This document shows positions 167-48,852 of a stretch of 48,852 nucleotides of DNA, one piece after another. The notes under the pieces are model-generated. The model searched no databases. It was not told the DNA's origin and worked only from the letters and a program-made list of their open reading frames with translations. Source of the stretch: a virus. A program made the position numbers and the translations under genes. Within the stretch, counting starts at the first letter, position 1, and every line of letters begins with the position of its first letter. The stretch is taken from positions 1 to 48,852 of IMG/VR virus record IMGVR_UViG_3300010399_000003; one strand, 5' to 3'.

Positions 167-835
167 ATGGCGCGTTACTCCAAGCCAAGAGAATACATCG
201 ATTGGGTCGGTTGGACTGGCCTAAACATTACTAAGATGTTGGCAGCTTGCATCAAATTGCATGAGGCAACAACCGAGTATACGCTTCGCAAACGCGTCGA
301 ACAACTTCTTCCAGAGATCAGTGAAAAACTCACTGGTCAGCGTGCAACATACCAGGAAATTGTTCAACACACGAAAGAAACTCAGGATCGAATAATCACG
401 GACCTAAAACTTGCGCAGCGCGCAGATAAAACATTGCGTGAAGAAGAATTTACGCAATGGTGGGAGCCAGTTGTGCGAGCATATCGTGAGATCGTTCATC
501 CAGGATTTGCAACGACTCCAGTAGTCATGACACCAACATCGACGGTGGAATCAACGCCAATCGTTAAAGCACCGCGTTGCTTTAGCGATGCGGATCTGCG
601 CGCTGCTATTAAGATCTACGGATCAATGTGTCATTATTGCAAAGCACCATTCAGCGAATTAAATCCGCCTGTAGCGGACCATTACATGCCTGTTGCAAAG
701 GGCGGAGCGACAATTCTTGATAATTGTCGACCTGCTTGTGTTCCATGCAACAGTGCCAAAGGCGATCTTGATCCATTTGAATTCGGTATGAAACGTGGAA
801 TAAAAGTATCAGGCGGGCGCAAAGGATTTTCGTAA
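167..835 (+). CDS. HNH endonuclease
   Basis: C-terminal HNH signature CHYCKAP...ADHYMPVAKGGATILDNCRPACVPCNSAKG. AGGAG lies 6 nt upstream of the ATG. Confidence 0.8.
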   Translation: MARYSKPREYIDWVGWTGLNITKMLAACIKLHEATTEYTLRKRVEQLLPEISEKLTGQRATYQEIVQHTKETQDRIITDLKLAQRADKTLREEEFTQWWEPVVRAYREIVHPGFATTPVVMTPTSTVESTPIVKAPRCFSDADLRAAIKIYGSMCHYCKAPFSELNPPVADHYMPVAKGGATILDNCRPACVPCNSAKGDLDPFEFGMKRGIKVSGGRKGFS

Positions 836-1393
836 ATGGCTCAATTGTTCGGCGACGAGGAGTTCGCCACTCCATTCCCTTACAAGACCACCGTCCGCGG
901 CGAGCAGTATGGTCCAGAAGATACCTATCTGCTCGCCGCCAAATGGTTGCGCGATTGTAAGACTGTCGCTGACTGGGGCGGCGGACGAGGATATTTCCAA
1001 AAGTGCCTCACGGCCGAACAAGCCTACCTCCTGATCGACGGGACGAAACAAGTGCCGCAGACGCGCATGGCGGATCTTGCCAAATACCGCGGCAAGAGCG
1101 AAGGTATTTTGCTCCGGCATGTCTTGGAGATGACCTTCGACTGGAAGGACGTGCTTACAAATGCCGTCGCCGCGTTTCAAAAGCGAATGGTAGTCGTGAC
1201 CTACACGCCGAATGTCAAGAAGACCCACCGAGCCAAGTGGCATCTCACATCGCCCGTTTTCCATTTCAATCATGAGGCTGATCTTGTGCCGCTGATGGAA
1301 CCTTATTTGGTGAAGATTGAGCCAATTCAAGCGTGGCCGACTTTGCCAGAACGAGTCTACTATCTGACAAAGGAAGGAGGTGAACGAGGATGA
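836..1393 (+). CDS. hypothetical protein, possible class I SAM-dependent methyltransferase fold
   Basis: ATG directly follows the TAA of the HNH gene. Gly-rich loop VADWGGGRGY, acidic LLIDG and LLRHVLEM resemble MTase motifs I, II and post-I. Motif-level evidence only. Confidence 0.45.
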   Translation: MAQLFGDEEFATPFPYKTTVRGEQYGPEDTYLLAAKWLRDCKTVADWGGGRGYFQKCLTAEQAYLLIDGTKQVPQTRMADLAKYRGKSEGILLRHVLEMTFDWKDVLTNAVAAFQKRMVVVTYTPNVKKTHRAKWHLTSPVFHFNHEADLVPLMEPYLVKIEPIQAWPTLPERVYYLTKEGGERG

Positions 1394-1898: not shown

Positions 1899-2960
1899 AT
1901 GAGAGTCCTGCAAGTTCGCAACGTTCATGAAGCACTTCCGCATGCACTGAAGTTGCTCGACGAAGAAGGCGAGCCTCGTAATTCACGGAACGGCCCGGTC
2001 TTGATCGGACCGAGTGTGACGACGATCTACGAGCGACCGATTGAGCGCGTGATGTTCTGGCCGACTCGTGACTGTAATCCGTTTTATCATCTCTACGAGG
2101 CTTTGTGGATGTTGGGCGGACGTCGGGATTCCGCACCGTTGACGCGGTATGCCAAGAACGCTGCTGACTATGCCGACGAGGATGGAAATTGGCACGGCGC
2201 GTATGGCTATCGGTGGCGAAAGCAATATGGCTTTGACCAGTTGCAAGTCATTGCAGATCGATTGCGGAAAAATCCGGATGACCGTCGATCCGTACTTACG
2301 ATGTGGAGTCCGGGCTTAGATTTGAACCCGACAGACGCTCATAAAGATTTGCCGTGCAATACGATGGCGACCTTTCAGCGTGGTCTCGACGGCGAATTGA
2401 ACCTGACGGTCTTCTGTCGAAGCAATGATATCATCTGGGGTGCCTATGGCGCCAACGCCGTGCACTTTTCCATGTTGCTCGAATACATGGCACTCTGGAT
2501 TGGATGCGCGGTCGGCACTTACACTCAGATCAGCGTCAATTGGCACGCCTACGTCGACAAGCTCGATCAGGTGAAGACCATCCGTCCTGACTATATGGAT
2601 TTCGTCGACAATCCCTACATCGACGGCCGCGCTTATCCAGCGCAGATGTTCCATTGTGAGATCGAGGAAGCGGATCGTCGGATTGCAGCGTTGCTCTTTT
2701 CGGCGGATACTGGTTTCAAGCACGCACGGCAATTCGGCGACGACGAGCCATTCTTCAACGCTGCTTTTTCCATCCTGATTGCGCATCACTATTGGCGGAC
2801 GTTGCCTCCGCCAGATCGATTCACGGTGGCGTTAGACCGCCTGAAACAGGACAATCAACGCAATGACTGGATTGTCGCGGCGCGTGAATGGGTGGAACGA
2901 CGATACAAGATCTGGCAGGCGAAAGAAGCGGTGCAATCCGGCGATTTGAGCCATCCATGA
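1899..2960 (+). CDS. ThyA-family thymidylate synthase-like pyrimidine C5 (hydroxy)methyltransferase
   Basis: ThyA landmarks are in order: SRNGPV (RTGTG-like), LYEALWMLGG, HGAYGYRWR (YGxQWR), DQL...NPDDRRSVLTMWSP, catalytic LPCNTMATFQ, CRSNDIIWGAYGANA (RSxD...N), NWHAY (HxY). GAGGAG SD. Confidence 0.85.
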   Translation: MRVLQVRNVHEALPHALKLLDEEGEPRNSRNGPVLIGPSVTTIYERPIERVMFWPTRDCNPFYHLYEALWMLGGRRDSAPLTRYAKNAADYADEDGNWHGAYGYRWRKQYGFDQLQVIADRLRKNPDDRRSVLTMWSPGLDLNPTDAHKDLPCNTMATFQRGLDGELNLTVFCRSNDIIWGAYGANAVHFSMLLEYMALWIGCAVGTYTQISVNWHAYVDKLDQVKTIRPDYMDFVDNPYIDGRAYPAQMFHCEIEEADRRIAALLFSADTGFKHARQFGDDEPFFNAAFSILIAHHYWRTLPPPDRFTVALDRLKQDNQRNDWIVAAREWVERRYKIWQAKEAVQSGDLSHP

Positions 2961-28026: not shown

Positions 28027-28363
28027 TGTGAAACAAATTCAACGCGACCTCCACGACGCATTAGAATTGATTGACGTCTTGCAACACGCGACGCAACTAC
28101 ACGGATACGAGCGACAACCCTACTATCGGCAGATTCAGCTCCTCCTGACTCGGGTGCAAACACTGCTCCTCCTGACTCAGACACAGGAAAAATTGAAAGT
28201 CTACGTCATCGCGAACAAACAGACTGACGCGATTGCAACCGGACGAATCTTCAGCTCGGCAGAAGCCGCTGATAAAGGTCTGATGAAGTTGGTCTCATGG
28301 GTGGCTTCGGAAGCCGACATCCGACGCATGTTTGAAGTAACCGAAGTGGAGGTCGAGTCATGA
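28019..28363 (+). CDS. hypothetical protein
   Basis: 8-nt overlap with the upstream gene. Confidence 0.5.
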   Translation: MTDVKQIQRDLHDALELIDVLQHATQLHGYERQPYYRQIQLLLTRVQTLLLLTQTQEKLKVYVIANKQTDAIATGRIFSSAEAADKGLMKLVSWVASEADIRRMFEVTEVEVES

Positions 28364-29400
28364 CTCAACTCGCACAACCACCCGGTGTGGCAGCACCGTG
28401 GCAAGTCGCCATGGATTCCCACATGAGCGCATTGAAACTAATCAATCATCTCACGAATCATTCGAATGATCTTGATTCGCGGTGGGCGGTCGATAAATTG
28501 ATCATGGAAGACGCCGTGCCGTTTTCGTGGTCCACCGAATCGATCGAAGCAGTCCTGGCCGCGAGTCGAACAATTCCACCGGATACGGTGCTGAACGTCT
28601 GGAATCTCGATACGAATGCCGCGTGGTGGTATTTCGACCAGGAACTGCCGTTTCCCACGATCAACGGCATCGACGGAATTCCGCCAGAGATCGCATCCAA
28701 AACTGGAGTCAAAGCCATGAGCATCGGATGGGTGTTGCATGCGCCTGAGGTTGCCAAGTTTCCAGCTGGCACCGATGTGCGAATTGTGGAACGCGCAATC
28801 CGGGAAGGTCCACCGAAGAAGCGCATGCTCGCAGTCGCGTCGTGGCTGTTAGACCCACTCAAACGATGGACCATGATTCCATCGCAAACGATGCAATGGG
28901 AGTTGAATGATTCACTCGAAGAATTGATGCGCAAATCGAAAACCAAGCATCAACACTTATACGGACCAGGAGGCAAGTGGGAGCGCGTCGCGCATGTCCA
29001 TGAAGACGTGTTCATGAATGCGGCGGAAGGAATGGCTCGATTCATTTTGGCTGGCTTAGCATGGTTGAATCAGAAGGTGCCGATTCTAGTTCAGTCGGAA
29101 GGGCACATCGAACGGCATCGACGTAAGGAATATCAGAAGAAAGTCAATCCGAGTATCACGCATGTGAAAGTCATTTCGCTGCGTCGGGTGGAGCGCCAAA
29201 AGGCGGCAGACCCCGATACAGCACCCGGCGCAAAGCGCGAATATTCTGTCCGATTTCCCGTGGACGGTCACTGGCGCAATCAACCTTACGGACCGAAGCG
29301 CCATGAACGGCGTTTGATCTGGATTTCGCCATTCATCAAAGGTCCTGCGGATAAACCGCTCCGCGTGCCGGAGCACAAAGTCTACAAGGTGAATCGATAA
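28360..29400 (+). CDS. hypothetical protein (346 aa)
   Basis: ATGA overlap. Long clean ORF with no motif recognised. Confidence 0.6.
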   Translation: MTQLAQPPGVAAPWQVAMDSHMSALKLINHLTNHSNDLDSRWAVDKLIMEDAVPFSWSTESIEAVLAASRTIPPDTVLNVWNLDTNAAWWYFDQELPFPTINGIDGIPPEIASKTGVKAMSIGWVLHAPEVAKFPAGTDVRIVERAIREGPPKKRMLAVASWLLDPLKRWTMIPSQTMQWELNDSLEELMRKSKTKHQHLYGPGGKWERVAHVHEDVFMNAAEGMARFILAGLAWLNQKVPILVQSEGHIERHRRKEYQKKVNPSITHVKVISLRRVERQKAADPDTAPGAKREYSVRFPVDGHWRNQPYGPKRHERRLIWISPFIKGPADKPLRVPEHKVYKVNR

Positions 29401-29782: not shown

Positions 29783-30126
29783 GCAAGAAAATCATTTATC
29801 GCCAAGACTATCTCTCGTCCGACGGCGAAACGAAACACTGGGTTGTCGTCTACGACGATGATTCAATTTCCTGCTCGTGCCGTGGCTTCAGCACACCATC
29901 CAAATGCTGGCATGTAAAAAAAGAAGCCAAAGACATGGGTCTGGAACTCGATATCAGCACATGGGGCGCGAAACTCGGGCCTCCGCTGAAGGATGAACGA
30001 ATGGAAATGCTCGTCAAGGGCAAGACCTTCGTCGCAAATCCGGGACCGCATTCCTATGTGCGGAGTCACCTCACTGTGTGCTATTCGTGCGGAAAACTAA
30101 AGAAGGATCCGATTCACTGGCGATGA
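29779..30126 (+). CDS. SWIM-type zinc-finger protein
   Basis: CSCRGFSTPSKCWH fits the CxCxnCxH SWIM pattern. ATGA overlap. Confidence 0.55.
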   Translation: MSKKIIYRQDYLSSDGETKHWVVVYDDDSISCSCRGFSTPSKCWHVKKEAKDMGLELDISTWGAKLGPPLKDERMEMLVKGKTFVANPGPHSYVRSHLTVCYSCGKLKKDPIHWR

Positions 30127-30332
30127 ATCTGCGAATCTGGGCAGCCTGTCGATTCTGCGACGGACAACACGTGATTGACTCCTACGATCTAGGATTCGGT
30201 CGCGACAAAGCGGTCTGCGCAAACTGCGTCGAGAAACTCGAAGCACAATTTCCATCGAAGATAGCAAAGCAAATTCTGCTCGGCAATCTTCCTGCGCCGC
30301 CTGGTCTTTTCAGACAGAAGGAGAAACCATGA
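30123..30332 (+). CDS. hypothetical zinc-ribbon protein
   Basis: ATGA overlap. CRFC...CANC. Confidence 0.5.
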   Translation: MNLRIWAACRFCDGQHVIDSYDLGFGRDKAVCANCVEKLEAQFPSKIAKQILLGNLPAPPGLFRQKEKP

Positions 30333-30778
30333 TTGATGCATTCCGCGGAAAGTACATGAAATTGAGCAACTACTCGCTCGTGACCATCATGTACGAAGGT
30401 CACGCCTACATGTCCGTCGAACATGCGTATCAAGCACAAAAGACGACGGATCCTGTGTTGCAGAAACAAATTCGTGATTCACCAACTCCGGCGACCGCCA
30501 AGAAACTCGCGCGCAGCGTTCCGCTTCGACCGGATTGGGAAGAAGTCAAAGTGCCGATCATGCTCCAATTGCTTCGTGAGAAATTCGCGCAAGAACCGGA
30601 GCGCACGATTCTCATGACGACCTACGATGAGGAGCTCGTCGAAGGCAACTGGTGGAACGATACCTTCTGGGGCGTCTGCAACGGCGTCGGCGAAAACATG
30701 CTCGGTAAATTGCTCATGAAAGTTCGCCAGGAACTTTGGGAAGAGCTGGCTATGGACGGAGGTTCATTGCCAATATGA
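30329..30778 (+). CDS. NADAR (YbiA/DUF1768) domain protein
   Basis: YMSVEHAYQAQK, PTPATAKKLAR, DWEEVKVPIMLQLLREKF, EELVEGNWWNDTFWG and GENMLGKLLMKVR match the conserved NADAR blocks in order. Confidence 0.85.
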   Translation: MIDAFRGKYMKLSNYSLVTIMYEGHAYMSVEHAYQAQKTTDPVLQKQIRDSPTPATAKKLARSVPLRPDWEEVKVPIMLQLLREKFAQEPERTILMTTYDEELVEGNWWNDTFWGVCNGVGENMLGKLLMKVRQELWEELAMDGGSLPI

Positions 30779-31155
30779 TGATCTTGCTGATCTTGCAACT
30801 TATCGTCGCGCCGGACCACCGTCTGACTCCTGGCTTGATCAGGACCAACATCAGCGCCGTCGAATCGTGCGCGACTCGCTGGAGTCTGGATGCACGGCAC
30901 GTGACTACCAGGATGCGCCGGCAGGTTTTCCAAAGTTACGGCATCGCCTGGAGCGACCGACGCTTCTACGTCGTAGACCACCTGATTCCGCGTGAGCTCG
31001 GCGGCGCAGATGATCTGCGAAATTTGTGGCCACAGAGTAAGGCGAATGCCAAGCGCAAAGATGTATGGGAGAATCGCTTACATCGTGATGTTTGCGCAGG
31101 GCGCATGCGATTTGTCGATGCTCAACGCATTATGCGAAACTGGGATCGTCCCTAA
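30775..31155 (+). CDS. HNH-family nuclease-like protein with N-terminal hydrophobic segment
   Basis: ATGA overlap. MMILLILQLIVAP leader. VVDHLIPRELGGADDLRNLWPQSKANAKRKD resembles the DH...N...N HNH-type motif. Confidence 0.55.
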   Translation: MMILLILQLIVAPDHRLTPGLIRTNISAVESCATRWSLDARHVTTRMRRQVFQSYGIAWSDRRFYVVDHLIPRELGGADDLRNLWPQSKANAKRKDVWENRLHRDVCAGRMRFVDAQRIMRNWDRP

Positions 31156-40769: not shown

Positions 40770-41923
40770 TATCTTGCCCTCTCTCCGAGGTCAACGCGTG
40801 CAAACATCGGATCATCGTAGGAGTAAACAAGCACCTGCCGTGCGTTGGCTCGTGCCCAGATTTCTAGATCCGGCATCTCTTCAAAACGACGTTGTGATAC
40901 AATGAAAGTATCACAATTCGTAACTTGTTCACGAATCATTGGATCTGCAAGATTGCCACACACAAGAAATCCGCGGCCACGGACTTTATCGTAATCCATT
41001 TCAATGCCCATGATCGGCATTTGAAAATCATCGCGAATCCGTTCAAGCAATTTTCCATTACCAGCGCCAAGATCAACGACCAAACCTGCAGGTGGTTGCA
41101 CATTGAGTTCCGCCAAAATCATGGCATGAGCTCGTTCCATGTTGGCTTCGGAATTGAATCCGTTTTCGGTCCAATCTTTCGATCGCATGAGTTTGAGTGG
41201 TTTTGTTGGTTGTTGCTGATATGGAAAGACAAGACCGCGTGCACCTTCGTCTGGATACGAAGTGCCAATTCGACGCACCACACGATTTCCTAATACAGTC
41301 GTTCGCGTCGAGACTTTCAAAATCGGATACTTGATTTCAGCGAGACCGTTCTTTGCGGACCACTCGATTGGCCAACTTAGAATATCGCGTGCCCATCCAA
41401 GTTCTTTCCGTGGCCACAAGGCATCCAAACTTTGAGCGAACAACCATGTATCATCACAGGTGAACGAGCATGGTAGATGCGGCACTAATCGAACACCAAG
41501 CCAACGACCAAGAATATTGCACTCGAGTGGACCGGAGACATGTAACGGATCTGGACCAGCCATATCCCACGTCGTATCGACATTTCCATTGACTTTCACT
41601 CGCTGAAAAAACTGCCGACAACATCGCGGATAGCGCAGCAATCGACCAACCGCGTCATCATCTCGTTTCCGATAGGCTCTCGCAAGTTCCTCAGCCAACG
41701 GTCCGACTGCAAAACGATCCTGATCCACAATCAGTGCCGGTGACAAGCCAGATTTCTGCACGAGCTTTTCACCGTAGACTAATGCCACAGATCGCAGTCC
41801 GAGTCGCACGGATGCCAATTCCACTTCCAGCCACGCGTTCGATACAGCCTGCAAACGTGGTCCCCAAATTTCACGCGCCTTGCTATTCGCCCACATGATT
41901 CGCGTCGAATCAGAAGGAGGCAT
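40769..41923 (-). CDS. two-domain protein: Cys-containing N-terminal domain plus C-terminal class I SAM methyltransferase domain
   Basis: Motif I LVVDLGAGNGKLLE, followed by GIEMD and CGNLAD. N-terminal YPRCCRQFF...HLPCSFTCD. Start at the Met preceded by GGAGA (41923), overlapping the radical SAM stop by 14 nt. Confidence 0.6.
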   Translation of the reverse strand: MPPSDSTRIMWANSKAREIWGPRLQAVSNAWLEVELASVRLGLRSVALVYGEKLVQKSGLSPALIVDQDRFAVGPLAEELARAYRKRDDDAVGRLLRYPRCCRQFFQRVKVNGNVDTTWDMAGPDPLHVSGPLECNILGRWLGVRLVPHLPCSFTCDDTWLFAQSLDALWPRKELGWARDILSWPIEWSAKNGLAEIKYPILKVSTRTTVLGNRVVRRIGTSYPDEGARGLVFPYQQQPTKPLKLMRSKDWTENGFNSEANMERAHAMILAELNVQPPAGLVVDLGAGNGKLLERIRDDFQMPIMGIEMDYDKVRGRGFLVCGNLADPMIREQVTNCDTFIVSQRRFEEMPDLEIWARANARQVLVYSYDDPMFARVDLGERAR

Positions 41924-43214
41924 CCGAATCTCCATGCATCACAGTCGTACCAGAGTCGCCATGAACAACATACGGATTATCTGCGTGTTGATATCCGTCA
42001 GGTGCATCCCAATGATCACCATGAGGATGATCCTGTAAAATCTCTGGTTCCTTACCCGATAACACGGATTGCAGAGCTTCGTGAATGGAAATGTTCTTGC
42101 CGGATTCCCAGAAGCGCAACATAACTGCGTCCACACGCTGCCGTAATTCTGGTTGTTTCGAAAGCGGCACGCGACCTTCTTGAATCAGATCAGCTTCCAT
42201 CCGTTCGAACAGCGCCATCCAACTCGCGCAATGTTCACTGCGATTCCGCCAATCACCGTCCTGTGCGGTGCCAGGACACTGACCTTTGCACGCAAAGAAA
42301 AACCTACATCCCTGACAACCAAGTTCCTCTTGAGGTGTATGGTAGAGTGCGACTTGCCGATCGTGGCTCACGACATCGGCCTTCCGCCAATCCACACCTT
42401 CTTTGTTCATACGACCGCAATTCGAGGATTCACCCTGACCATTCACGCCGCGCACCGCGGCAGTCGTGTAAGGATCACAAGCATTCCAGATACATGTCAC
42501 CTGTTGATCTTCAGCCATGAGCAATTTGCGCATGTCATTGAAGATATCAAAATCAATTCCGGGATGCATTTTCTGAAAATGATACAACGATAACAAGGCA
42601 GCCGTGTTTTCTTCATTCGTTAATGCCATCGTCGAACGCACACGATCATTCTCAACTTCGAGCAGATGGATTCGCATACTGCGAATTCCGAGCTTGTTCA
42701 GGGTGGTGAACCACTGCATGAGTCGCCAAAGTCGTTCGCCAACAGCATTTCCTCGATAGAGCGTCGTGATGATACTTGGTACGATCTTCACTTTGAGCAA
42801 TTTATGTAATGCAACGAAGCTCGCATGCGTTGCTGCACGAGTCTTTTCCAAGGTGCCAGCCCAACGACTGTCGTTTAGTTCGTCTGGACCATCTAGTGAC
42901 AAACCGACATGCACTTTGTATCGCTGAAATAGTACAATGTGTTCGTCGGTAATCAGCGTGCCATTGGATTGGATGCTGTTTGAACCAAATCGCTCAAGCC
43001 CGTAGGCAAAGATCTCTTCAAGAATCGGTAATGGTGTAAGGAGTGCTTCGCCGCCGAAAATGGAAAATTGACCACCCTCGCGTTCAAGACCTGCTTTCAT
43101 CTTTTCGAAATTGTAACCTTGTGTGATATTGCCAGCTTCACGCATTTGATTCTGATAGCAATAATCACATGATAGATTACATGCCACGCCAACAGGCGTC
43201 AATTCAATAGACAT
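41910..43214 (-). CDS. radical SAM enzyme with SPASM-type C-terminal domain (anSME/peptide-maturase-like)
   Basis: CNLSCDYC (CX3CX2C), IFGGEALL, then the auxiliary-cluster pattern CIWNAC...NCG...CQGCRFFFACKGQC (CX2CX5CX3C). 1-nt TGATG overlap with the upstream tail gene. Confidence 0.85.
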   Translation of the reverse strand: MSIELTPVGVACNLSCDYCYQNQMREAGNITQGYNFEKMKAGLEREGGQFSIFGGEALLTPLPILEEIFAYGLERFGSNSIQSNGTLITDEHIVLFQRYKVHVGLSLDGPDELNDSRWAGTLEKTRAATHASFVALHKLLKVKIVPSIITTLYRGNAVGERLWRLMQWFTTLNKLGIRSMRIHLLEVENDRVRSTMALTNEENTAALLSLYHFQKMHPGIDFDIFNDMRKLLMAEDQQVTCIWNACDPYTTAAVRGVNGQGESSNCGRMNKEGVDWRKADVVSHDRQVALYHTPQEELGCQGCRFFFACKGQCPGTAQDGDWRNRSEHCASWMALFERMEADLIQEGRVPLSKQPELRQRVDAVMLRFWESGKNISIHEALQSVLSGKEPEILQDHPHGDHWDAPDGYQHADNPYVVHGDSGTTVMHGDSDASF

Positions 43215-45418
43215 CAGTTTAAATCCCCATGAGCAATATCACTGTGTTGATCACCATGTGGCGTATCGGTATGCAACACATCCGTGTGAGCAACGTCGCC
43301 GTGCGCAGTATCAGCATGTGCTGAATCGGAATGTGCTGTATCTGAGTGAACACCGTCTGCATGAGCCGCAATATCAGAATGTGCTGTATCAGAATGTGCT
43401 GTATCGCCGTGACTAACGTCAGCGTGCGCCACGTCAGAATGTGTGTTGACTAAGGCGACATCCGAATGCGCAGTATCCGAATGTGAATCTACGTGTGCCG
43501 AGTCACTATGTGAATCACTGTGCGAATCGGTATGCGAATCACCATGCGCAATGTGACCAGGTGAATCGAAAAATTCTTCACGATCAACGTGCGAATCAGA
43601 GTGAGAATCTTCGTGTGCGATATCAGAGTGAGCTACGTCGGAGTGGGAATCAGAGTGAGCTACGTCGGAGTGCGCCGTATCACCATGCGTATCACTATGT
43701 GCAGTATCAGTATGCGCGCGGTCTGAATGAGCAGCGTCGCCATGAGCAACGTCTGAATGAGCGACGTCACCGTGCGTTCCAGCATCTGCATGTGCAGCAT
43801 CACCATGGGCAACGTCCTGATGTGCATCATCAGTATGCGTATCGGAATGAGCTATGTCTCCGTGTGCAGTATCCTGATGCACGTCAGAATGAGCCACATC
43901 TGTATGACCAACGATCAAACCAAATCCAAGTCGCGTTGATCCATCAAGTTCGGAAAGTCCCTCGATTTCCAATAACCAAAATGCCGTTGAATCAGCAGGG
44001 ACAAGTGTAAATTCGGTTCGGAGTGTATTATCTTGTTCCGTCTCAGTGATTGAATTAATGTAGAATGAACGCGTGATACCAGTCACGTAATCCGTCAGAC
44101 CAATACGATCACTGATGTCACGATCAAGGCTTCTTGCTAATTCTAATGCATCGCTATTCAAGCCAACAAAACGAACGAGACCCGAAACTTGTGTTATCGG
44201 AAAGGCCATAGAAAAAACGAAATATTGCGCAGCTTCCAATCCAAATCGTGGATCAGCTTGATACACCATATCAATCTGTTGCACGATTGGACCATACTGT
44301 GCAATACTCGTATCGTCTTTCCACTGCATGACAGTCGCACCATAATCATACAATGGTTTCCCGCGTTGTTGTAGTTTCGTCAAATAGCCAGTCACACCTC
44401 CGTTGTACGTCACAGAAAATTCTGTCGCGTTTCCAGAAAAACCAATCGTCACCGACACAAAACCTGTCAGATTCGTTCCGCTTCCATCACTCGCCGTATT
44501 TGCTGTGTAATCGGTAGTCGCTGTGATTGGTGCTAAATCAGCAGCGCCAACACGAACGTCTGGATTATCTGGATCTGTCCAAGGCCCAAGAATTGTAATA
44601 GTCTGGCCAGGGATTAGCTCCATTGGTTGTTTCATCGAGAACATGACAACGTAGCTGGAGCCAGGCACCCGAGGATGAACAGTTGATTGAACCTTGTTGA
44701 TCAGACTAGTACGATCTCGATCGGCGACAAACCCAAAATGATCATCATACACATCAGCATTAGTTGCACTGATTGCACGACGGGTTCTGGATTCATACAC
44801 AACAGTTCCGTCACCACGTATCCAGCAACGATCTAAACCACTAATGCATAGACGATAAATTTCATCGCGAAGCACTGTCTGTTCATCTCGTGTACGATCC
44901 AGTGAATACGGAAAAATATCAGCACTCAAATCCATTTCCAATGCGTCAGGCTGGCTGACGATCGGAATTGAATCAATGAGGACCTGGAAAATCTCGTCAC
45001 CTCGTTTGTTGATTTGTACTGGAAGATTTTCTAATCTCGTTCGCTGTGCAACATCCATCCAATCGACAACTTCACACGATACCGTACGAGGACCGTGCCG
45101 ACCAGTGATTGGAGTGATTGAATCTAACACGCCAGTAAATCGGATGATACTGCCGATTCGATAGCGCACACGGATATTCAATTCAAATCCAGATCTCCTA
45201 TTTTCATGATCTGGACTGTAATATCCGATTAATCCAACACTGTTTCGTTCGCTATTGTCGAGTGAAAAGGACAGAGTGCCGATATCGGCTACAAGATCAA
45301 GAATGGAAGAACCAGGGAGACCACGATGCCACGTGATGCCAGGACCACGAAGCACATCGGTAACGGTCGTCCAACCATTACCACGGCCGCTGAATTCCAT
45401 TTCAATGATGCCACTCAT
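43214..45418 (-). CDS. tail (distal tail/tip) protein with C-terminal His-x-Asp repeat domain
   Basis: Follows the tape measure gene with a 4-nt overlap. The N-terminal ~500 aa is beta-rich, the position typical of Dit/tail-tip proteins. The C-terminal 231 aa is almost entirely (A)H-x-D-x repeats. Confidence 0.6.
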   Translation of the reverse strand: MSGIIEMEFSGRGNGWTTVTDVLRGPGITWHRGLPGSSILDLVADIGTLSFSLDNSERNSVGLIGYYSPDHENRRSGFELNIRVRYRIGSIIRFTGVLDSITPITGRHGPRTVSCEVVDWMDVAQRTRLENLPVQINKRGDEIFQVLIDSIPIVSQPDALEMDLSADIFPYSLDRTRDEQTVLRDEIYRLCISGLDRCWIRGDGTVVYESRTRRAISATNADVYDDHFGFVADRDRTSLINKVQSTVHPRVPGSSYVVMFSMKQPMELIPGQTITILGPWTDPDNPDVRVGAADLAPITATTDYTANTASDGSGTNLTGFVSVTIGFSGNATEFSVTYNGGVTGYLTKLQQRGKPLYDYGATVMQWKDDTSIAQYGPIVQQIDMVYQADPRFGLEAAQYFVFSMAFPITQVSGLVRFVGLNSDALELARSLDRDISDRIGLTDYVTGITRSFYINSITETEQDNTLRTEFTLVPADSTAFWLLEIEGLSELDGSTRLGFGLIVGHTDVAHSDVHQDTAHGDIAHSDTHTDDAHQDVAHGDAAHADAGTHGDVAHSDVAHGDAAHSDRAHTDTAHSDTHGDTAHSDVAHSDSHSDVAHSDIAHEDSHSDSHVDREEFFDSPGHIAHGDSHTDSHSDSHSDSAHVDSHSDTAHSDVALVNTHSDVAHADVSHGDTAHSDTAHSDIAAHADGVHSDTAHSDSAHADTAHGDVAHTDVLHTDTPHGDQHSDIAHGDLN
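43217..43909 (-). repeat. coding tandem repeats (12-15 nt periodicity) encoding the HxD repeat domain
   Basis: Protein residues 504-734 begin GHTDVAHSDVHQDTAHGDIAHSDTHTDDAHQDVAHGD and end HGDQHSDIAHGDLN. About 45 H-x-D triplets by hand count, interrupted once by REEFFDSPGHIA. Confidence 0.9.
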
Positions 45419-48400
45419 GCCGTCCGCAATCCGACTAAGCCAGTAGCGATCGCACGAGACATAGCACGCGGCAGCGATGTTTTCAAATCTGAGCGAAGAC
45501 CGTTGATAGAATCGACGACTTCCTCATTCGACGGCATCTCCGGGAAACCACCCTGATTCAGTTGACGCAAACCTTCATTGCCGAGTCGTTCCATGCCTTT
45601 CGTTGTAACAATGCCCTCGCCAGGTGTAAGCATCGTCGCCACTGTATCCGAACCTCTCGCAGGCCACGGACCTTCGAGCACCGGTCCGCCAACGGCCAAG
45701 TATTGCACACCGGATGCCGTGACGCGACCGCCACGCGATGCGTAATCAGGGATGTCCGGCGCAATGTAATGACCTTCAATCTGGATATCGAAATCCTTGG
45801 GGATTTTATCCAGTTCCGTCTTCATATTCGCGGCAGTCGTTTTAGTCTGTTGCTCCATTGCACGAAGACCTTCAGGGATCTTCGCACCGAGCGCGTCACC
45901 GATTGCCATCAGCACGTCAAGGATCTTTTGATTATCCGATTTCGCCTGTTCACCGATGAGCCCGGATTGCACGCCTTGATCAATCAATGCTTGCGTCGAT
46001 TCATCGACGCTGTAGCCGTAGCGCTGCTGCATCTCCCAGATTGTTTGGAGATCACCACGCATCGCAAGCATCACAGTGTCACTGGAATAACCCTGTGCCA
46101 CCAACGCTTCTTCAGTCGCGGCAATCTGACCGGCCAGACCTGAGAATGTCTCCTGATTCAGGATACCAGCGTTGCTCAGACCGATCATACCAGCGGTGTA
46201 GCCTTCAATGGATTCGAGTGCCGGACCCGCGATTTCATCATTCGCGAAATCAACCATGTTCTTGATGAAATCGAATGCAGCACCTCCAGTGTAACCAGTC
46301 GCTTCCAACTGCGCCTGCAACAATTCGACGTTTGGACCAATCGCCCTGACCGACTCGATAAATGATTTGCCAGCCTCCATGTTCGCCGAGACAATACCAG
46401 CCAACGAACTAGCAACTGCACTCGCGGCTTCTTGTGAATGAAGTCCGGTCACTTCGATAATTCGATCATTGTTCTCGATCTGATCATGCAACGCCATCAA
46501 GCCCTTGTATTCAGCTTCGTTCTTCGCAATGATCTGATCAATCTGGATTTGAATTGCCATTTTATGCCCAAGATCCGCCTTGGCATACTTGGCTTCGAGA
46601 TCCATGATTTTCGCGATGTCTAGGTATTCATCCTGATCCATTTCCGCGCGGCGCTTGGAGAATTCCGCTTGTTGTTTCGCCCGATCTGCGTATGCATTAC
46701 CGGTGATTCTCAATGCCGCACTGAAACCAGTCTGCGCATTAGTTAGCTGACCGGATACATATGCGGCGATCTCTTTCGATTGAGTTCCGTATTGTCCGTT
46801 CAGCTTGATGATTTCAACAAGCTGTTTATCCAACATCCCAAGATTGTTGGTACCAGCTTGTGCAAATTGCGCAAAGTTTTCATCCATGACTTTCGCACCT
46901 TGTGCGATCGTCATTTGATGTGTTTCAATCAGTGAGAACACATCGTGGAATCTATCCGTCATTTGTGCTAGATTATCTTTTGAGAGACCTCCGGCTTCCT
47001 TGATGATATCAGATAAATGCGATATTGCCGCGGCCTGCCGACTTCCTCCGAAATCTTCCTTTGCAGATTTTGCAATCGCCTTCGCAAGATCGTCTGAAAT
47101 CTTCTCACCAAAATCCCGCCCGACTTCTTCCGCAGCCTTGGCCCACGCAGGTTTTCCACGAATGATGCCAACCACCAAACCAGCCGCTGCGCCGACAGCC
47201 ATTCCATAAGGCCCGAACATCGAACCAGCCTGAGCCCCAGCCATCATACCACCAAGTGCGTTACCGGCGGCAGATGAATGTGCGGAAGTCGCGTCCCAAA
47301 CCGCAATTGCACCTTGAGCGATACCAGCTGCGGTTTGTACACCAGCAGCGAACTTCTGCATCCTGTCGGCATTATCATTGAAAATCGTGCTCAGCGGTCC
47401 GAAGTGACCACCAAGTTCATGACCATCAATACCAAGTTGTTTTGATTGCTTATGCGCACTTTCAAGTCCGACAACAACTTGTCCAACTCCGCTGAGTATC
47501 GCACCCATCATCCCGCCGGTCACTTGACCAAGTTTGGTGAAATACTCGGAGATCGTCGCAAGTGACTCAGATGCCCGTCTTTCTGCAGCTGCCAATTTAT
47601 CGAGTTTGATTCTCAGTTCGTCGATTTCTGTAGACTTACGACCGACATCTTCCAAACTTAGCGCCATGTTATAGAAGCCTTGTAATGGCGCAGGAATACT
47701 CCGTTCAACCATTTTAAGTCCAGCAGCAACTTCCACCTGCGTCCGAACCCATTTCAATTCAGTCTCGTCGACTTCTAAGAGTTTTGAATGGAATCCCTTC
47801 AATTCACCGAATTGAATCTTAACGAGCTGCGCACCAATTTTCTTTTGCTCAGCCCATTGTTTTTCTGCATATACAACGCTTTCAACAATGGGTTTTGTTA
47901 CGCTGTATGCCGCGGCGATTTCAGCAATTGATTTACCACGTGCATGATCAAAGGCGATTCCTTCATATAACGTCGCGCCAATTTTGGCCATGACGTTTTG
48001 ATAATCGCCAAGTTTTGCATTGTAATTCGTCAAAGCCGCTTCGATTTTTGTCTGTTCGGCTGCGGATTTCTTGAGTTCCGTGATGTAGGCTTTCGTTGCC
48101 GCTTCTGTCGCACCAGTGACTTTGAGGATTTCCTTTATCGACTCGGTGTTCATAGCCACGCGAGTATATTCTTTTTGTGCTTCAGTCAGCGGCGTTAACG
48201 CAGCATCTTTCAAAGATTTCAATTTCTGTGACATCAAATCGGCACCAGCCGCACTGTTCGCCATGGATGCTGCAACAGCTTGTAGTGCAGGATGCCCAGC
48301 CAGAGCCTCTTTATTTACTCCGGCGATAGCAACTCCAACCTGTTTCATTAATGGCGTCGAAAAATTATTCGCTTTTGCCGTCGCCATCACTGAACGTTCA

Positions 48401-48852
48401 AGTTCGTCGAGTTGCGTCGCCGTGTGTCCAGAATTACTTGATAGATCTGAAATCGCTTCTTGTAAATCTTTCGCCCCACCGTGCGCTTTACGAAACTGTT
48501 CGTTATTGAAAGCAATTGCTTCGGCGTAGCGTTTGGCTTGATCTGTTTCGGTTGACGACCAACCATCTTTCAGAGCTTTATTCAATACGAATTGTTTGGC
48601 TGCAGCTGTTTCTGTTTGTAATTGTGCTTCTGCAGTCGCCTGCCGCCAACTTGTATAAGCCAAAGTCACGCCAGCAATCGCAGCCGCGATTGCCACAAAT
48701 GGATGTGCCAAAATGATATTGTAGAGTTTGGTAAAAGCTGCACCGAGATTCGCCAAAGCTGCTTCACCGAGTGTTCCCCATCCAAACGCTTGGGTCATGA
48801 CACTCAGTTTGAAAATTTCAGCGGCAAGACTCGCTATCCAACCACCAAGTTT
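45415..48852 (-). CDS. tail tape measure protein (5' end possibly outside window)
   Basis: More than 1100 aa, Ala/Gln/Lys-rich and helical, with hydrophobic N-terminal and Gly-rich central segments. C-terminal GSDTVATMLTPGEGIVTTKGMERLG block. The frame upstream of ATG 48798 has no stop up to the window edge. Confidence 0.8.
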   Translation of the reverse strand, partial: KLGGWIASLAAEIFKLSVMTQAFGWGTLGEAALANLGAAFTKLYNIILAHPFVAIAAAIAGVTLAYTSWRQATAEAQLQTETAAAKQFVLNKALKDGWSSTETDQAKRYAEAIAFNNEQFRKAHGGAKDLQEAISDLSSNSGHTATQLDELERSVMATAKANNFSTPLMKQVGVAIAGVNKEALAGHPALQAVAASMANSAAGADLMSQKLKSLKDAALTPLTEAQKEYTRVAMNTESIKEILKVTGATEAATKAYITELKKSAAEQTKIEAALTNYNAKLGDYQNVMAKIGATLYEGIAFDHARGKSIAEIAAAYSVTKPIVESVVYAEKQWAEQKKIGAQLVKIQFGELKGFHSKLLEVDETELKWVRTQVEVAAGLKMVERSIPAPLQGFYNMALSLEDVGRKSTEIDELRIKLDKLAAAERRASESLATISEYFTKLGQVTGGMMGAILSGVGQVVVGLESAHKQSKQLGIDGHELGGHFGPLSTIFNDNADRMQKFAAGVQTAAGIAQGAIAVWDATSAHSSAAGNALGGMMAGAQAGSMFGPYGMAVGAAAGLVVGIIRGKPAWAKAAEEVGRDFGEKISDDLAKAIAKSAKEDFGGSRQAAAISHLSDIIKEAGGLSKDNLAQMTDRFHDVFSLIETHQMTIAQGAKVMDENFAQFAQAGTNNLGMLDKQLVEIIKLNGQYGTQSKEIAAYVSGQLTNAQTGFSAALRITGNAYADRAKQQAEFSKRRAEMDQDEYLDIAKIMDLEAKYAKADLGHKMAIQIQIDQIIAKNEAEYKGLMALHDQIENNDRIIEVTGLHSQEAASAVASSLAGIVSANMEAGKSFIESVRAIGPNVELLQAQLEATGYTGGAAFDFIKNMVDFANDEIAGPALESIEGYTAGMIGLSNAGILNQETFSGLAGQIAATEEALVAQGYSSDTVMLAMRGDLQTIWEMQQRYGYSVDESTQALIDQGVQSGLIGEQAKSDNQKILDVLMAIGDALGAKIPEGLRAMEQQTKTTAANMKTELDKIPKDFDIQIEGHYIAPDIPDYASRGGRVTASGVQYLAVGGPVLEGPWPARGSDTVATMLTPGEGIVTTKGMERLGNEGLRQLNQGGFPEMPSNEEVVDSINGLRSDLKTSLPRAMSRAIATGLVGLRTA

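What the first reader, a model, noticed from the sequence alone, without database searches (positions are those of the whole stretch)
30329..31155. Phage-encoded NADAR-domain protein coupled to an HNH-like protein: candidate counter-defence against nucleic-acid ADP-ribosylation
The 149-aa protein matches the NADAR (YbiA/DUF1768) conserved blocks very well. NADAR domains are linked to NAD/ADP-ribose metabolism. As I recall, they have been reported to reverse guanine ADP-ribosylation made by DarT-type toxins.

In a phage early region, a stand-alone NADAR is a plausible anti-defence enzyme that removes ADP-ribose from phage DNA. It is ATGA-coupled to a downstream HNH-like protein with a hydrophobic leader, an odd pairing.
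Basis: partly seen in the sequence, partly recalled or inferred. Interest (0 to 1): 0.55.

Follow-up and report, generated by a model that had tools for sequence, protein, structure and literature searches.

The report
Phage orphan NADAR ADP-ribose-removing enzyme
An uncultured soil phage carries a stand-alone NADAR enzyme that most likely strips ADP-ribose off guanine in its nucleic acid to escape DarT1-type bacterial defence, a trick already published for other phages (AdfN); the nuclease-like gene next to it is a chance neighbour.

Summary
ORF 30329-30778 encodes a 149-aa NADAR protein (Pfam E 6.7e-26; model TM 0.81 to E. coli YbiA and 0.78 to the ADP-ribose-bound Phytophthora NADAR). All catalytic and ligand residues are present: E31, K38, E105, D111, W114. 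Its stop overlaps by ATGA the start of a 126-aa protein (30775-31155) with an HNH fold and a hydrophobic leader.

The counter-defence idea is well supported but not new. Phage orphan NADARs, named AdfN, were shown in 2025 to remove DarT1-made guanine ADP-ribose and to defeat DarTG1. The window protein is 43% identical over its full length to the validated AdfN of phage Bas32. It is 39% identical to E. coli YbiA and is unlike T4 gp30.3 or the DarG1 antitoxin. It is a new member of a known kind. About 535 GenBank phage records and more than 3,000 metagenomic proteins carry relatives.

The pairing with the HNH-like gene is not conserved: 0 of 27 other HNH-like loci have a NADAR nearby, and 0 of 32 NADAR loci have the HNH-like gene. 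Four-base overlaps are this genome's norm (14 of 37 junctions). Substrate and defence target remain untested inference.

The parts
30329..30778 (+). Orphan NADAR-domain protein, 149 aa, Glu-type (YbiA-like core, no N-terminal extension). Predicted guanine-ADP-ribose glycohydrolase of the AdfN kind.
   Evidence: Pfam PF08719 E 6.7e-26. phrog_1017 E 9.4e-40. PDB sequence hit to YbiA 2b3w E 2.8e-20. Model pLDDT 95.6, TM 0.81 to 2b3w and 0.78 to 8bau. 43% identity to AdfN-Bas32. E31, K38, K58, W70, E105, D111 and W114 are invariant in 27 relatives.
30775..31155 (+). 126-aa HNH-fold protein with a hydrophobic N-terminal leader. It belongs to a small uncharacterised family found in phage and bacterial contigs. 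It is a neighbour, not a demonstrated partner.
30775..30778 (+). ATGA start/stop overlap between the NADAR gene and the HNH-like gene.
   Evidence: Read directly from the sequence. The same 4-base overlap occurs at 14 of 37 + strand junctions in the 20-kb locus L001 of the same contig.
30123..30332 (+). Upstream 69-aa CxxC...CxxC ORF, ATGA-overlapped at both ends. It is part of the same tightly packed gene string; function unknown.
   Evidence: Translation. Called as a gene on the sibling contig L002. No family hit.

Best explanation
The 149-aa protein is an enzymatically competent, orphan NADAR ADP-ribosyl glycohydrolase of an uncultured ~113-kb soil phage. No toxin gene lies beside it. During infection it most likely cuts the N-glycosidic bond between ADP-ribose and guanine (N2) on phage DNA. 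That undoes the replication-blocking marks written by DarT1-type host ADP-ribosyltransferases. This is the same job shown for the phage AdfN proteins.

Shown here: family membership, fold, intact active site, orphan status, and full-length homology to a validated AdfN.

Inferred: the substrate (G-ADPr on DNA) and the defence that is countered.

The downstream HNH-fold protein is a separate, mobile, probably exported small nuclease-like gene. Its overlap with the NADAR gene reflects compact gene packing, not a conserved two-gene module.
For: - NADAR membership: Pfam E 6.7e-26.
- Fold: TM 0.81 to YbiA and 0.78 to ADPr-bound PnNADAR.
- Residue map onto 8bau (alignment, with PMC11543638 numbering): E31=E43, K38=K50, K58=K75, R62=R79, D69=D86, W70=W89, E105=E125, D111=D130, W114=W133. 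Of these, E31, K38, K58, D69, W70, E105, D111 and W114 are invariant in 27 relatives; R62 is the majority residue but variable.
- Homology to a validated AdfN: 43% identity, E 2e-38, full length, to bas32_0066. That is the only NADAR gene in phage Bas32. AdfN-Bas32 neutralises DarT1 toxicity and restores plating of RB69, T5 and Bas25 on DarTG1 hosts, but not on DarTG2 hosts (PMC11825919).
- In vitro activity across the superfamily: every NADAR family tested hydrolyses G-ADPr in vitro (PMC11125620; PMC12945103).
- In vivo rescue residue: the window protein shares with AdfN-Bas32 and AdfN-Bas60 the Lys (K58) equivalent to E. coli C7 K115, which is needed for in vivo DarT1 rescue. E. coli YbiA has Ala there and T4 gp30.3 has Gln.
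- Shared motif: it also shares the EGNxWxDTxWG motif with AdfN-Bas32 rather than with YbiA.
- Context: no ART, macrodomain or riboflavin gene was found in the window.
- Distribution: relatives are common in phages, with 535 GenBank phage records and 28 IMG/VR loci.
Against: - No biochemical or genetic test was possible.
- The host is unknown, so it is unknown whether it carries DarT1.
- The protein is almost as close to E. coli YbiA (39%, E 8e-27) as to AdfN-Bas32. YbiA is a riboflavin-intermediate N-glycosidase that does not rescue DarT1 toxicity in vivo.
- It passes the NCBIfam TIGR02464 'riboflavin intermediates N-glycosidase' cutoff (84.3 against 73.7 bits).
- A neighbour-joining tree with few references did not resolve whether its clade is sister to YbiA or to AdfN-Bas32.
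- Glu-type NADARs also remove cytidine-ADPr and RNA G-ADPr, so the physiological substrate could differ.
Confidence: 0.6

Rival explanations
1. Same chemistry, different target. The enzyme reverses ADP-ribosylation made by ARTs other than DarT1. Candidates are cytidine-ADPr or guanine-ADPr on DNA or RNA written by pierisin/ScARP-like, YarT-like or still unknown defence or competitor toxins of soil bacteria.
For: It is a Glu-type NADAR (E105). Glu-type NADAR and YbiA proteins also remove C-ADPr, whereas Asp-type DarG1 and the His-type T4 NADAR do not (PMC12945103). All NADARs tested remove RNA G-ADPr (PMC11833690). A YbiA-type NADAR is the antitoxin of the non-DarT ART YarT (PMC11125620). The source is soil or rhizosphere.
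Against: The only phage NADARs with a demonstrated biological role act against DarTG1. No specific alternative ART is known to act as a phage defence on G or C bases.
Confidence: 0.2
2. Metabolite-repair or nucleotide-pool N-glycosidase. Like E. coli YbiA, it would hydrolyse reactive riboflavin-pathway intermediates or another ribosylated small molecule, supporting phage metabolism rather than counter-defence.
For: TIGR02464 is passed above its cutoff. It is 39% identical to YbiA, which is its best PDB hit. Several phage records annotate relatives as riboflavin or GTP cyclohydrolase II proteins, and in T5-like phages the gene sits near nrd/thyA genes.
Against: TIGR02464 also passes on AdfN-Bas60 (109 bits), a validated anti-DarT protein, so the label does not discriminate. 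There are no riboflavin genes in the window. YbiA itself cleaves G-ADPr in vitro. A phage has no obvious need for riboflavin damage control. The window protein has K58, like the proteins that rescue in vivo, where YbiA has Ala.
Confidence: 0.12
3. NADAR and the HNH-like protein form a functional two-gene module. For example, a nuclease that processes ADP-ribosylated or otherwise marked DNA could be co-translated with the hydrolase.
For: The two genes share an ATGA overlap on the same strand. The adjacency is kept on three sibling contigs (L001-L003).
Against: 0 of 27 other loci encoding HNH-like relatives have a NADAR within 4 kb. 0 of 32 NADAR loci have an HNH-like gene within 3 kb. The HNH-like gene has no conserved neighbour at all. 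Close NADAR homologues are followed by unrelated genes. 14 of 37 junctions in this genome are 4-base overlaps. The HNH-like family carries an export-type leader, which would place it in a different compartment from a DNA-repairing NADAR. The sibling contigs are the same phage, not independent evidence.
Confidence: 0.04
4. It is a non-catalytic inhibitor that binds an ADP-ribosylated defence complex, or a phage-borne defence or superinfection-exclusion NADAR.
For: PMC11825919 notes a phage NADAR acting on Retron-Eco1 without needing enzymatic activity. There are weak hits to NADAR models from defence systems: NCBIfam DS32_2 at 65 bits and PADLOC PDC-M42C at E 1.4e-7.
Against: DS32_2 is far below its cutoff of 240 bits, and E. 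coli YbiA scores higher on it, so the hit is generic NADAR similarity. The strictly conserved catalytic residues argue for catalysis.
Confidence: 0.04

Closest known systems
AdfN-Bas32 (bas32_0066, Escherichia phage IrisVonRoten, MZ501075.1), anti-DarT factor NADAR (Johannesman et al. 2025, PMC11825919)
   Same: Both are 149 aa, phage-encoded, orphan and without an N-terminal extension. They are 43% identical over the full length (E 2e-38). They share the same catalytic E/K/E/D/W set, the same K58-equivalent Lys and the same EGNxWxDTxWG motif.
   Different: Unrelated phage (an uncultured ~113-kb soil phage against a T5-like coliphage). Different gene neighbourhood (RNase H/thyA/nrd in Bas32). 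57% of residues differ. Activity is untested.
E. coli YbiA (PDB 2B3W), riboflavin-intermediate N-glycosidase and in vitro G-ADPr hydrolase
   Same: Best solved-structure match (E 2.8e-20; TM 0.81). 39% identity. Glu at the subfamily-defining position. Both pass TIGR02464.
   Different: YbiA is chromosomal, in a LexA-controlled operon with dinG, rhlE and ybiB. It has Ala where the window protein has K58, and HTE where the window has GNWW. It does not rescue DarT1 toxicity in vivo.
DarG1, the DarT1-associated NADAR antitoxin (BC4488 subfamily; Schuller et al. 2023, PMC11543638)
   Same: Same superfamily, the same inferred chemistry (guanine de-ADP-ribosylation), and conserved Glu/Lys pair and K115-equivalent Lys.
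   Different: There is no adjacent DarT. There is no basic N-terminal beta-beta-alpha extension. It has Glu, not Asp, at the third catalytic position. The Foldseek match to G. lovleyi NADAR 8bat is poor (TM 0.49).
T4 gp30.3 (AdfN-T4), the classical 'phage NADAR' family
   Same: A phage orphan NADAR of similar size (152 aa), with the same proposed role.
   Different: No detectable pairwise similarity. T4-type proteins have His at the E105 position and Gln at the K58 position, and they need the T-even context for full activity.
HNH (beta-beta-alpha-Me) nucleases such as phage GVE2 HNH and the ZRANB3 HNH domain. This entry concerns the downstream gene.
   Different: Below the Pfam HNH threshold. 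No zinc-binding CxxC pairs. It has a hydrophobic or signal-like leader and a conserved Cys pair. It forms a small family of its own, with 38 homologues and none in cultured phage records.

Membership tests
NADAR superfamily (PF08719 / DUF1768) | Profile match above the curated threshold | tested here: met
   91.9 bits against a gathering score of 35.1, E 6.7e-26
NADAR superfamily (PF08719 / DUF1768) | YbiA-like alpha-helical core fold | tested here: met
   Model pLDDT 95.6. TM 0.81 to 2b3w and 0.78 to 8bau
NADAR superfamily (PF08719 / DUF1768) | Catalytic Glu and phosphate-binding Lys (Pn E43/K50; E. coli C7 E88/K95) | tested here: met
   E31 and K38, invariant in 27 relatives
AdfN (phage anti-DarT factor NADAR) | Phage-encoded NADAR without a cognate DarT toxin gene | tested here: met
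   Phage context. No ART or DarT family was found in any window ORF scanned
AdfN (phage anti-DarT factor NADAR) | Homology to an experimentally validated AdfN | tested here: met
   43% identity, E 2e-38, full length, to AdfN-Bas32. Weak and partial to AdfN-Bas60 (27%). None to AdfN-T4
AdfN (phage anti-DarT factor NADAR) | Removes ADP-ribose from DarT1-modified DNA | not testable with these tools
   Needs an in vitro assay
AdfN (phage anti-DarT factor NADAR) | Restores phage replication on DarTG1 hosts, or neutralises DarT1 toxicity | not testable with these tools
   Needs plaque and toxicity assays
DarG1 antitoxin NADAR (BC4488 subfamily) | Encoded next to DarT1 | tested here: not met
   The neighbours are small unknown ORFs and an HNH-like gene
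DarG1 antitoxin NADAR (BC4488 subfamily) | Asp at the third catalytic position and a basic N-terminal extension | tested here: not met
   Glu (E105). The protein begins at the core fold. TM is only 0.49 to 8bat
T4-type phage NADAR (gp30.3) | His replacing the conserved Glu; sequence similarity to gp30.3 | tested here: not met
   E105 is present. BLASTP against gp30.3 is not significant
YbiA-type riboflavin-intermediate N-glycosidase (TIGR02464) | Profile match above the NCBIfam cutoff | tested here: met
   84.3 against 73.7 bits. The validated AdfN-Bas60 also passes (109 bits) while AdfN-Bas32 scores 66, so the model does not separate the functions
YbiA-type riboflavin-intermediate N-glycosidase (TIGR02464) | Fusion to, or neighbourhood with, riboflavin genes (RibA/RibD), or a housekeeping chromosomal context | tested here: not met
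   No such gene in the window. Phage context
HNH endonuclease (PF01844), downstream gene | Profile match above the gathering score | tested here: not met
   16.2 against 21.4 bits, E 0.012
HNH endonuclease (PF01844), downstream gene | Beta-beta-alpha-Me fold with a His...Asn...His/Asn motif | tested here: met

The most novel reading that the evidence does not exclude
This very abundant Glu-type clade of short phage NADARs is close to both YbiA and AdfN-Bas32, and holds more than 3,000 metagenomic relatives. It might not be primarily an anti-DarT1 device. It could counter a different, still undescribed nucleic-acid ADP-ribosylating defence, such as cytidine-ADPr or RNA-base ADPr. That would explain why it is so widespread in phages of hosts where DarTG1 is rare. 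A still less likely variant is that the exported HNH-like protein cooperates with it.
Probability: 0.15. Interest if true: 0.55.

Novelty: new member of a known kind. Interest (0 to 1): 0.22.

Why it matters
It adds one more divergent, uncultured-phage example to the AdfN class of enzymatic counter-defence proteins, and it shows that this Glu-type clade is very common in environmental phages. In practice it illustrates two annotation traps. Curated models name such proteins 'riboflavin intermediates N-glycosidase' even when a member is a validated anti-DarT enzyme. ATGA overlaps in densely packed phage genomes should not be read as functional coupling. It does not open a new question: the mechanism, the structures and the phage role were published in 2023-2025.

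Tried and rejected
- Megablast of 24 kb of the window against GenBank phages found no match. An exact 39-mer of the gene is not in IMG/VR. blastn against E. coli genomes found no match. The phage has no close sequenced relative and no host could be assigned. Helicase relatives are at most 29% identical.
- tblastn of the HNH-like protein against GenBank phages found no match. PDB sequence search gave only noise. NCBIfam and PADLOC gave nothing.
- The promoter and terminator scan around the genes gave no more sites than shuffled sequence, so 'early region' could not be tested.
- A neighbour-joining tree with only four reference NADARs did not resolve YbiA against AdfN-Bas32 sisterhood. The reference sets of the published trees (supplementary tables) were not available.
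- The precomputed 'AcrVA2-like (weak)' tag on the 346-aa gene two genes upstream was not reproduced by hmmscan at E <= 0.01. The idea of an anti-defence island was dropped.
- The Carabias 2024 Retron-Eco1 paper on a non-catalytic phage NADAR is not held, so that rival rests on a one-line citation in PMC11825919.
- The afdb50 fold library was unavailable.

Full report
**1. What is in the sequence**

ORF 30329..30778 (+) encodes 149 aa and has a GGAG Shine-Dalgarno sequence upstream. Its TGA stop (30776-30778) overlaps the ATG (30775-30777) of a 126-aa ORF that ends at 31155. The mechanical ORF list extends this second ORF upstream to a TTG at 30736. However, the N-termini of 25 homologues all align with the ATG at 30775.

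A third, 69-aa CxxC...CxxC ORF (30123..30332) is ATGA-overlapped with both the gene before it and the NADAR gene. It is called as a gene on a sibling contig (L002).

**2. The NADAR assignment is secure**

- Pfam NADAR (PF08719) scores 91.9 bits against a gathering score of 35.1, E 6.7e-26.
- PHROG phrog_1017 scores E 9.4e-40.
- The best solved-structure relative by sequence is E. coli YbiA (2b3w, E 2.8e-20). Next is the Phytophthora NADAR crystallised with ADP-ribose (8bau).
- An AlphaFold model built on 27 homologues has pLDDT 95.6. It superposes on 2b3w with TM 0.81 and on 8bau with TM 0.78, but only 0.49 on the DarT1-associated G. lovleyi NADAR 8bat.

I used the alignment and the residue roles given by Schuller et al. 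2023 (PMC11543638) to map the active site.

| Window residue | Phytophthora NADAR residue | Role |
|---|---|---|
| E31 | E43 | distal-ribose ligand / catalytic Glu |
| K38 | K50 | essential phosphate-binding Lys |
| K58 | K75 | equals E. coli C7 K115; needed for in vivo DarT1 rescue |
| R62 | R79 | ligand contact |
| D69 | D86 | ligand contact |
| W70 | W89 | ligand contact |
| E105 | E125 | subfamily-defining residue |
| D111 | D130 | ligand contact |
| W114 | W133 | ligand contact |

E31, K38, K58, D69, W70, E105, D111 and W114 are invariant in 27 relatives. R62 is the majority residue but is variable (20 of 27, with N, Q or K in the rest). Glu at position 105 marks the YbiA/NADAR-type proteins. 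DarG1 antitoxins have Asp there, and T4-type phage NADARs have His.

**3. Context**

The exact protein lies on a 112,870-bp ENA soil-metagenome contig and on shorter JGI and Logan contigs. The window carries these genes:

- an SNF2-type helicase and a UvrD-type helicase;
- a divergent ThyA-family protein;
- an RNase T-like exonuclease;
- an ATP-dependent DNA ligase;
- a bona fide HNH endonuclease;
- a radical-SAM protein;
- a Pam3_Gp34-like protein;
- a 1127-aa coiled-coil protein that looks like a tape measure protein.

So it is a phage, but one without a close sequenced relative. The host is unknown.

The NADAR gene sits in a long same-strand string of small unknown ORFs, downstream of the replication genes. 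No ADP-ribosyltransferase, macrodomain, sirtuin or riboflavin gene was found in any of about 85 window ORFs scanned. The NADAR is therefore an orphan. Whether the region is 'early' cannot be told; consensus promoter and terminator sites are no more frequent than in shuffled sequence.

**4. What it most likely does**

- NADARs hydrolyse guanine-linked ADP-ribose written by DarT1 and serve as the DarTG1 antitoxin (PMC11543638).
- Every NADAR family tested, including E. coli YbiA and T4 gp30.3, removes G-ADPr from DNA in vitro (PMC11125620; PMC12945103) and from RNA (PMC11833690).
- Johannesman et al. 2025 (PMC11825919) showed that phages carry orphan NADARs, named AdfN. These remove ADP-ribose from phage DNA and defeat DarTG1.
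- Divergent AdfN proteins of phages Bas32 and Bas60 neutralise DarT1 even in uninfected cells. They have no effect on thymidine-specific DarTG2.

I located these reference genes. bas32_0066 is the only NADAR-like gene in the complete Bas32 genome, and bas60_0111 is the only one in Bas60.

| Comparison with the window protein | Identity | E-value | Extent |
|---|---|---|---|
| AdfN-Bas32 | 43% | 2e-38 | 146 of 149 residues |
| E. coli YbiA | 39% | 8e-27 | most of the protein |
| AdfN-Bas60 | 27% | 2e-3 | part of the protein only |
| T4 gp30.3 | none detectable | not significant | none |

Two local features link the window protein to the proteins that rescue in vivo rather than to YbiA.

- The Lys equivalent to C7 K115 is present in the window protein, in Bas32 and in Bas60. 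It is Ala in YbiA and Gln in T4 gp30.3.
- The EGNxWxDTxWG motif is shared with Bas32, against EHTENDAYWG in YbiA.

This rests on five proteins, so it is a correlation and not a test.

My best explanation (confidence about 0.6) is an AdfN-type guanine-ADP-ribose glycohydrolase that cleans phage DNA of DarT1-type marks. That the protein has G-ADPr hydrolase activity in vitro I consider considerably more likely than that. The physiological target is the uncertain step.

**5. Rivals**

(a) Same chemistry, other writers or other bases. Glu-type NADARs also remove cytidine-ADPr, and a YbiA-type NADAR is the antitoxin of the non-DarT toxin YarT.

(b) A metabolite N-glycosidase like YbiA. The protein passes NCBIfam TIGR02464, 'riboflavin biosynthesis intermediates N-glycosidase' (84.3 against 73.7 bits). 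However, the validated AdfN-Bas60 also passes (109 bits), so this label does not separate the functions. No riboflavin context exists in the window.

(c) A NADAR-HNH module; this is treated in section 6.

(d) A non-catalytic binder, or a defence-type NADAR. Only generic sub-threshold similarity supports this. The strictly conserved catalytic residues argue against it.

**6. The 'odd pairing'**

The downstream protein does have an HNH fold.

- The model has pLDDT 90.4.
- The BFVD top hits are 'HNHc domain' proteins of uncultured phages (E 2.4e-7).
- It carries D68-H69, N83 and H104.
- It stays below the Pfam HNH threshold.

It belongs to a small family of 38 homologues. None of them is in GenBank phage records. 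The family occurs on viral contigs (25 IMG/VR loci) and also in a plainly bacterial neighbourhood (L007). Every member begins with a hydrophobic leader, and the bacterial ones look like Sec signal peptides. Two cysteines are nearly invariant. This suggests an exported, disulfide-bonded small nuclease-like protein.

The adjacency to NADAR is not conserved in either direction.

- 0 of 27 other HNH-like loci contain a NADAR within 4 kb.
- 0 of 32 NADAR loci contain an HNH-like gene within 3 kb.
- The HNH-like gene has no recurrent neighbour.
- Close NADAR homologues are followed by unrelated genes: a 212-aa unknown plus a methyltransferase, NeuB, or nothing.

Within this phage, 14 of 37 consecutive same-strand junctions in L001 are 4-base overlaps. 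The ATGA overlap is the genome's default packing and not a sign of functional coupling.

**7. Comparison and novelty**

The gene works like, and by every feature testable here is a member of, the AdfN class of phage orphan NADARs, nearest to AdfN-Bas32. It is not a DarG1-type antitoxin: it has no DarT neighbour, no N-terminal extension, and Glu rather than Asp. It is not a T4-type phage NADAR either.

It is one of very many such genes. 535 of 50,697 GenBank phage records carry a relative at E <= 1e-5. 3,151 non-redundant metagenomic proteins match at E <= 1e-10. The finding is correct but is a new member of a known kind, and I rate its interest as low (0.22).

The residual open point concerns this Glu-type clade, which on my limited tree cannot be separated cleanly from YbiA. 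It is unclear whether the clade targets DarT1 marks or another ADP-ribosylation. That is the most novel reading not excluded (probability about 0.15).

Noticed in passing
window 30123-30332 (+): A 69-aa ORF with two CxxC pairs (zinc-ribbon-like), ATGA-overlapped with both the upstream gene and the NADAR gene. It is called as a gene on sibling contig L002 but not on L001. No family hit.
   Followed up: partly
window 1899-2960 (+), 836-1393 (+), 41910-43214 (-): A divergent 353-aa ThyA-family protein (PF00303 E 6e-23; phrog_5131), a methyltransferase-like protein and a radical-SAM protein. The phage may modify its nucleotides or DNA.
   Followed up: no
L017 4001-4474 (115-kb Logan contig SRR14194035_9493): A close NADAR homologue (P0050; 71% identical to the window protein over the 91% of it that aligns) is embedded, with 4-base overlaps, in a sugar-nucleotide cluster (epimerase, aminotransferase, NeuB, CTP-transferase). 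This is an unexpected context for an anti-DarT enzyme.
   Followed up: no
window 30775-31155 and alignment A1: All members of the HNH-like family have a hydrophobic N-terminal leader, Sec-like in the bacterial members. Two cysteines (C32, C107) are nearly invariant. This suggests an exported, disulfide-bonded small nuclease family that has not been characterised.
   Followed up: partly
L021 32014-32565 (Bas60 bas60_0111) and window 30329-30778: NCBIfam TIGR02464, 'riboflavin biosynthesis intermediates N-glycosidase', passes its trusted cutoff on the experimentally validated anti-DarT protein AdfN-Bas60 (109 bits). Automatic names for phage NADARs are therefore misleading.
   Followed up: yes
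window residue K58 of the NADAR (codon 30500-30502): The column equivalent to E. coli C7 NADAR K115 is Lys in the window protein, AdfN-Bas32 and AdfN-Bas60. It is Ala in E. coli YbiA and Gln in T4 gp30.3. This matches which proteins are reported to rescue DarT1 toxicity in uninfected cells. It is a correlation across five proteins only.
   Followed up: partly
window 28360-29400 (+): The 346-aa protein carries a precomputed 'AcrVA2-like (weak)' Pfam tag in the contig look-up. A direct hmmscan at E <= 0.01 did not reproduce it. Only phrog_15934 (unknown function) matches its C-terminus.
   Followed up: yes
window 45415-48798 (-) and 167-835 (+): A 1127-aa coiled-coil/Gly-zipper protein that looks like a tape measure protein heads a minus-strand block. 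A separate, canonical HNH endonuclease (PF01844 E 3.6e-9) lies at the left end of the window.
   Followed up: no
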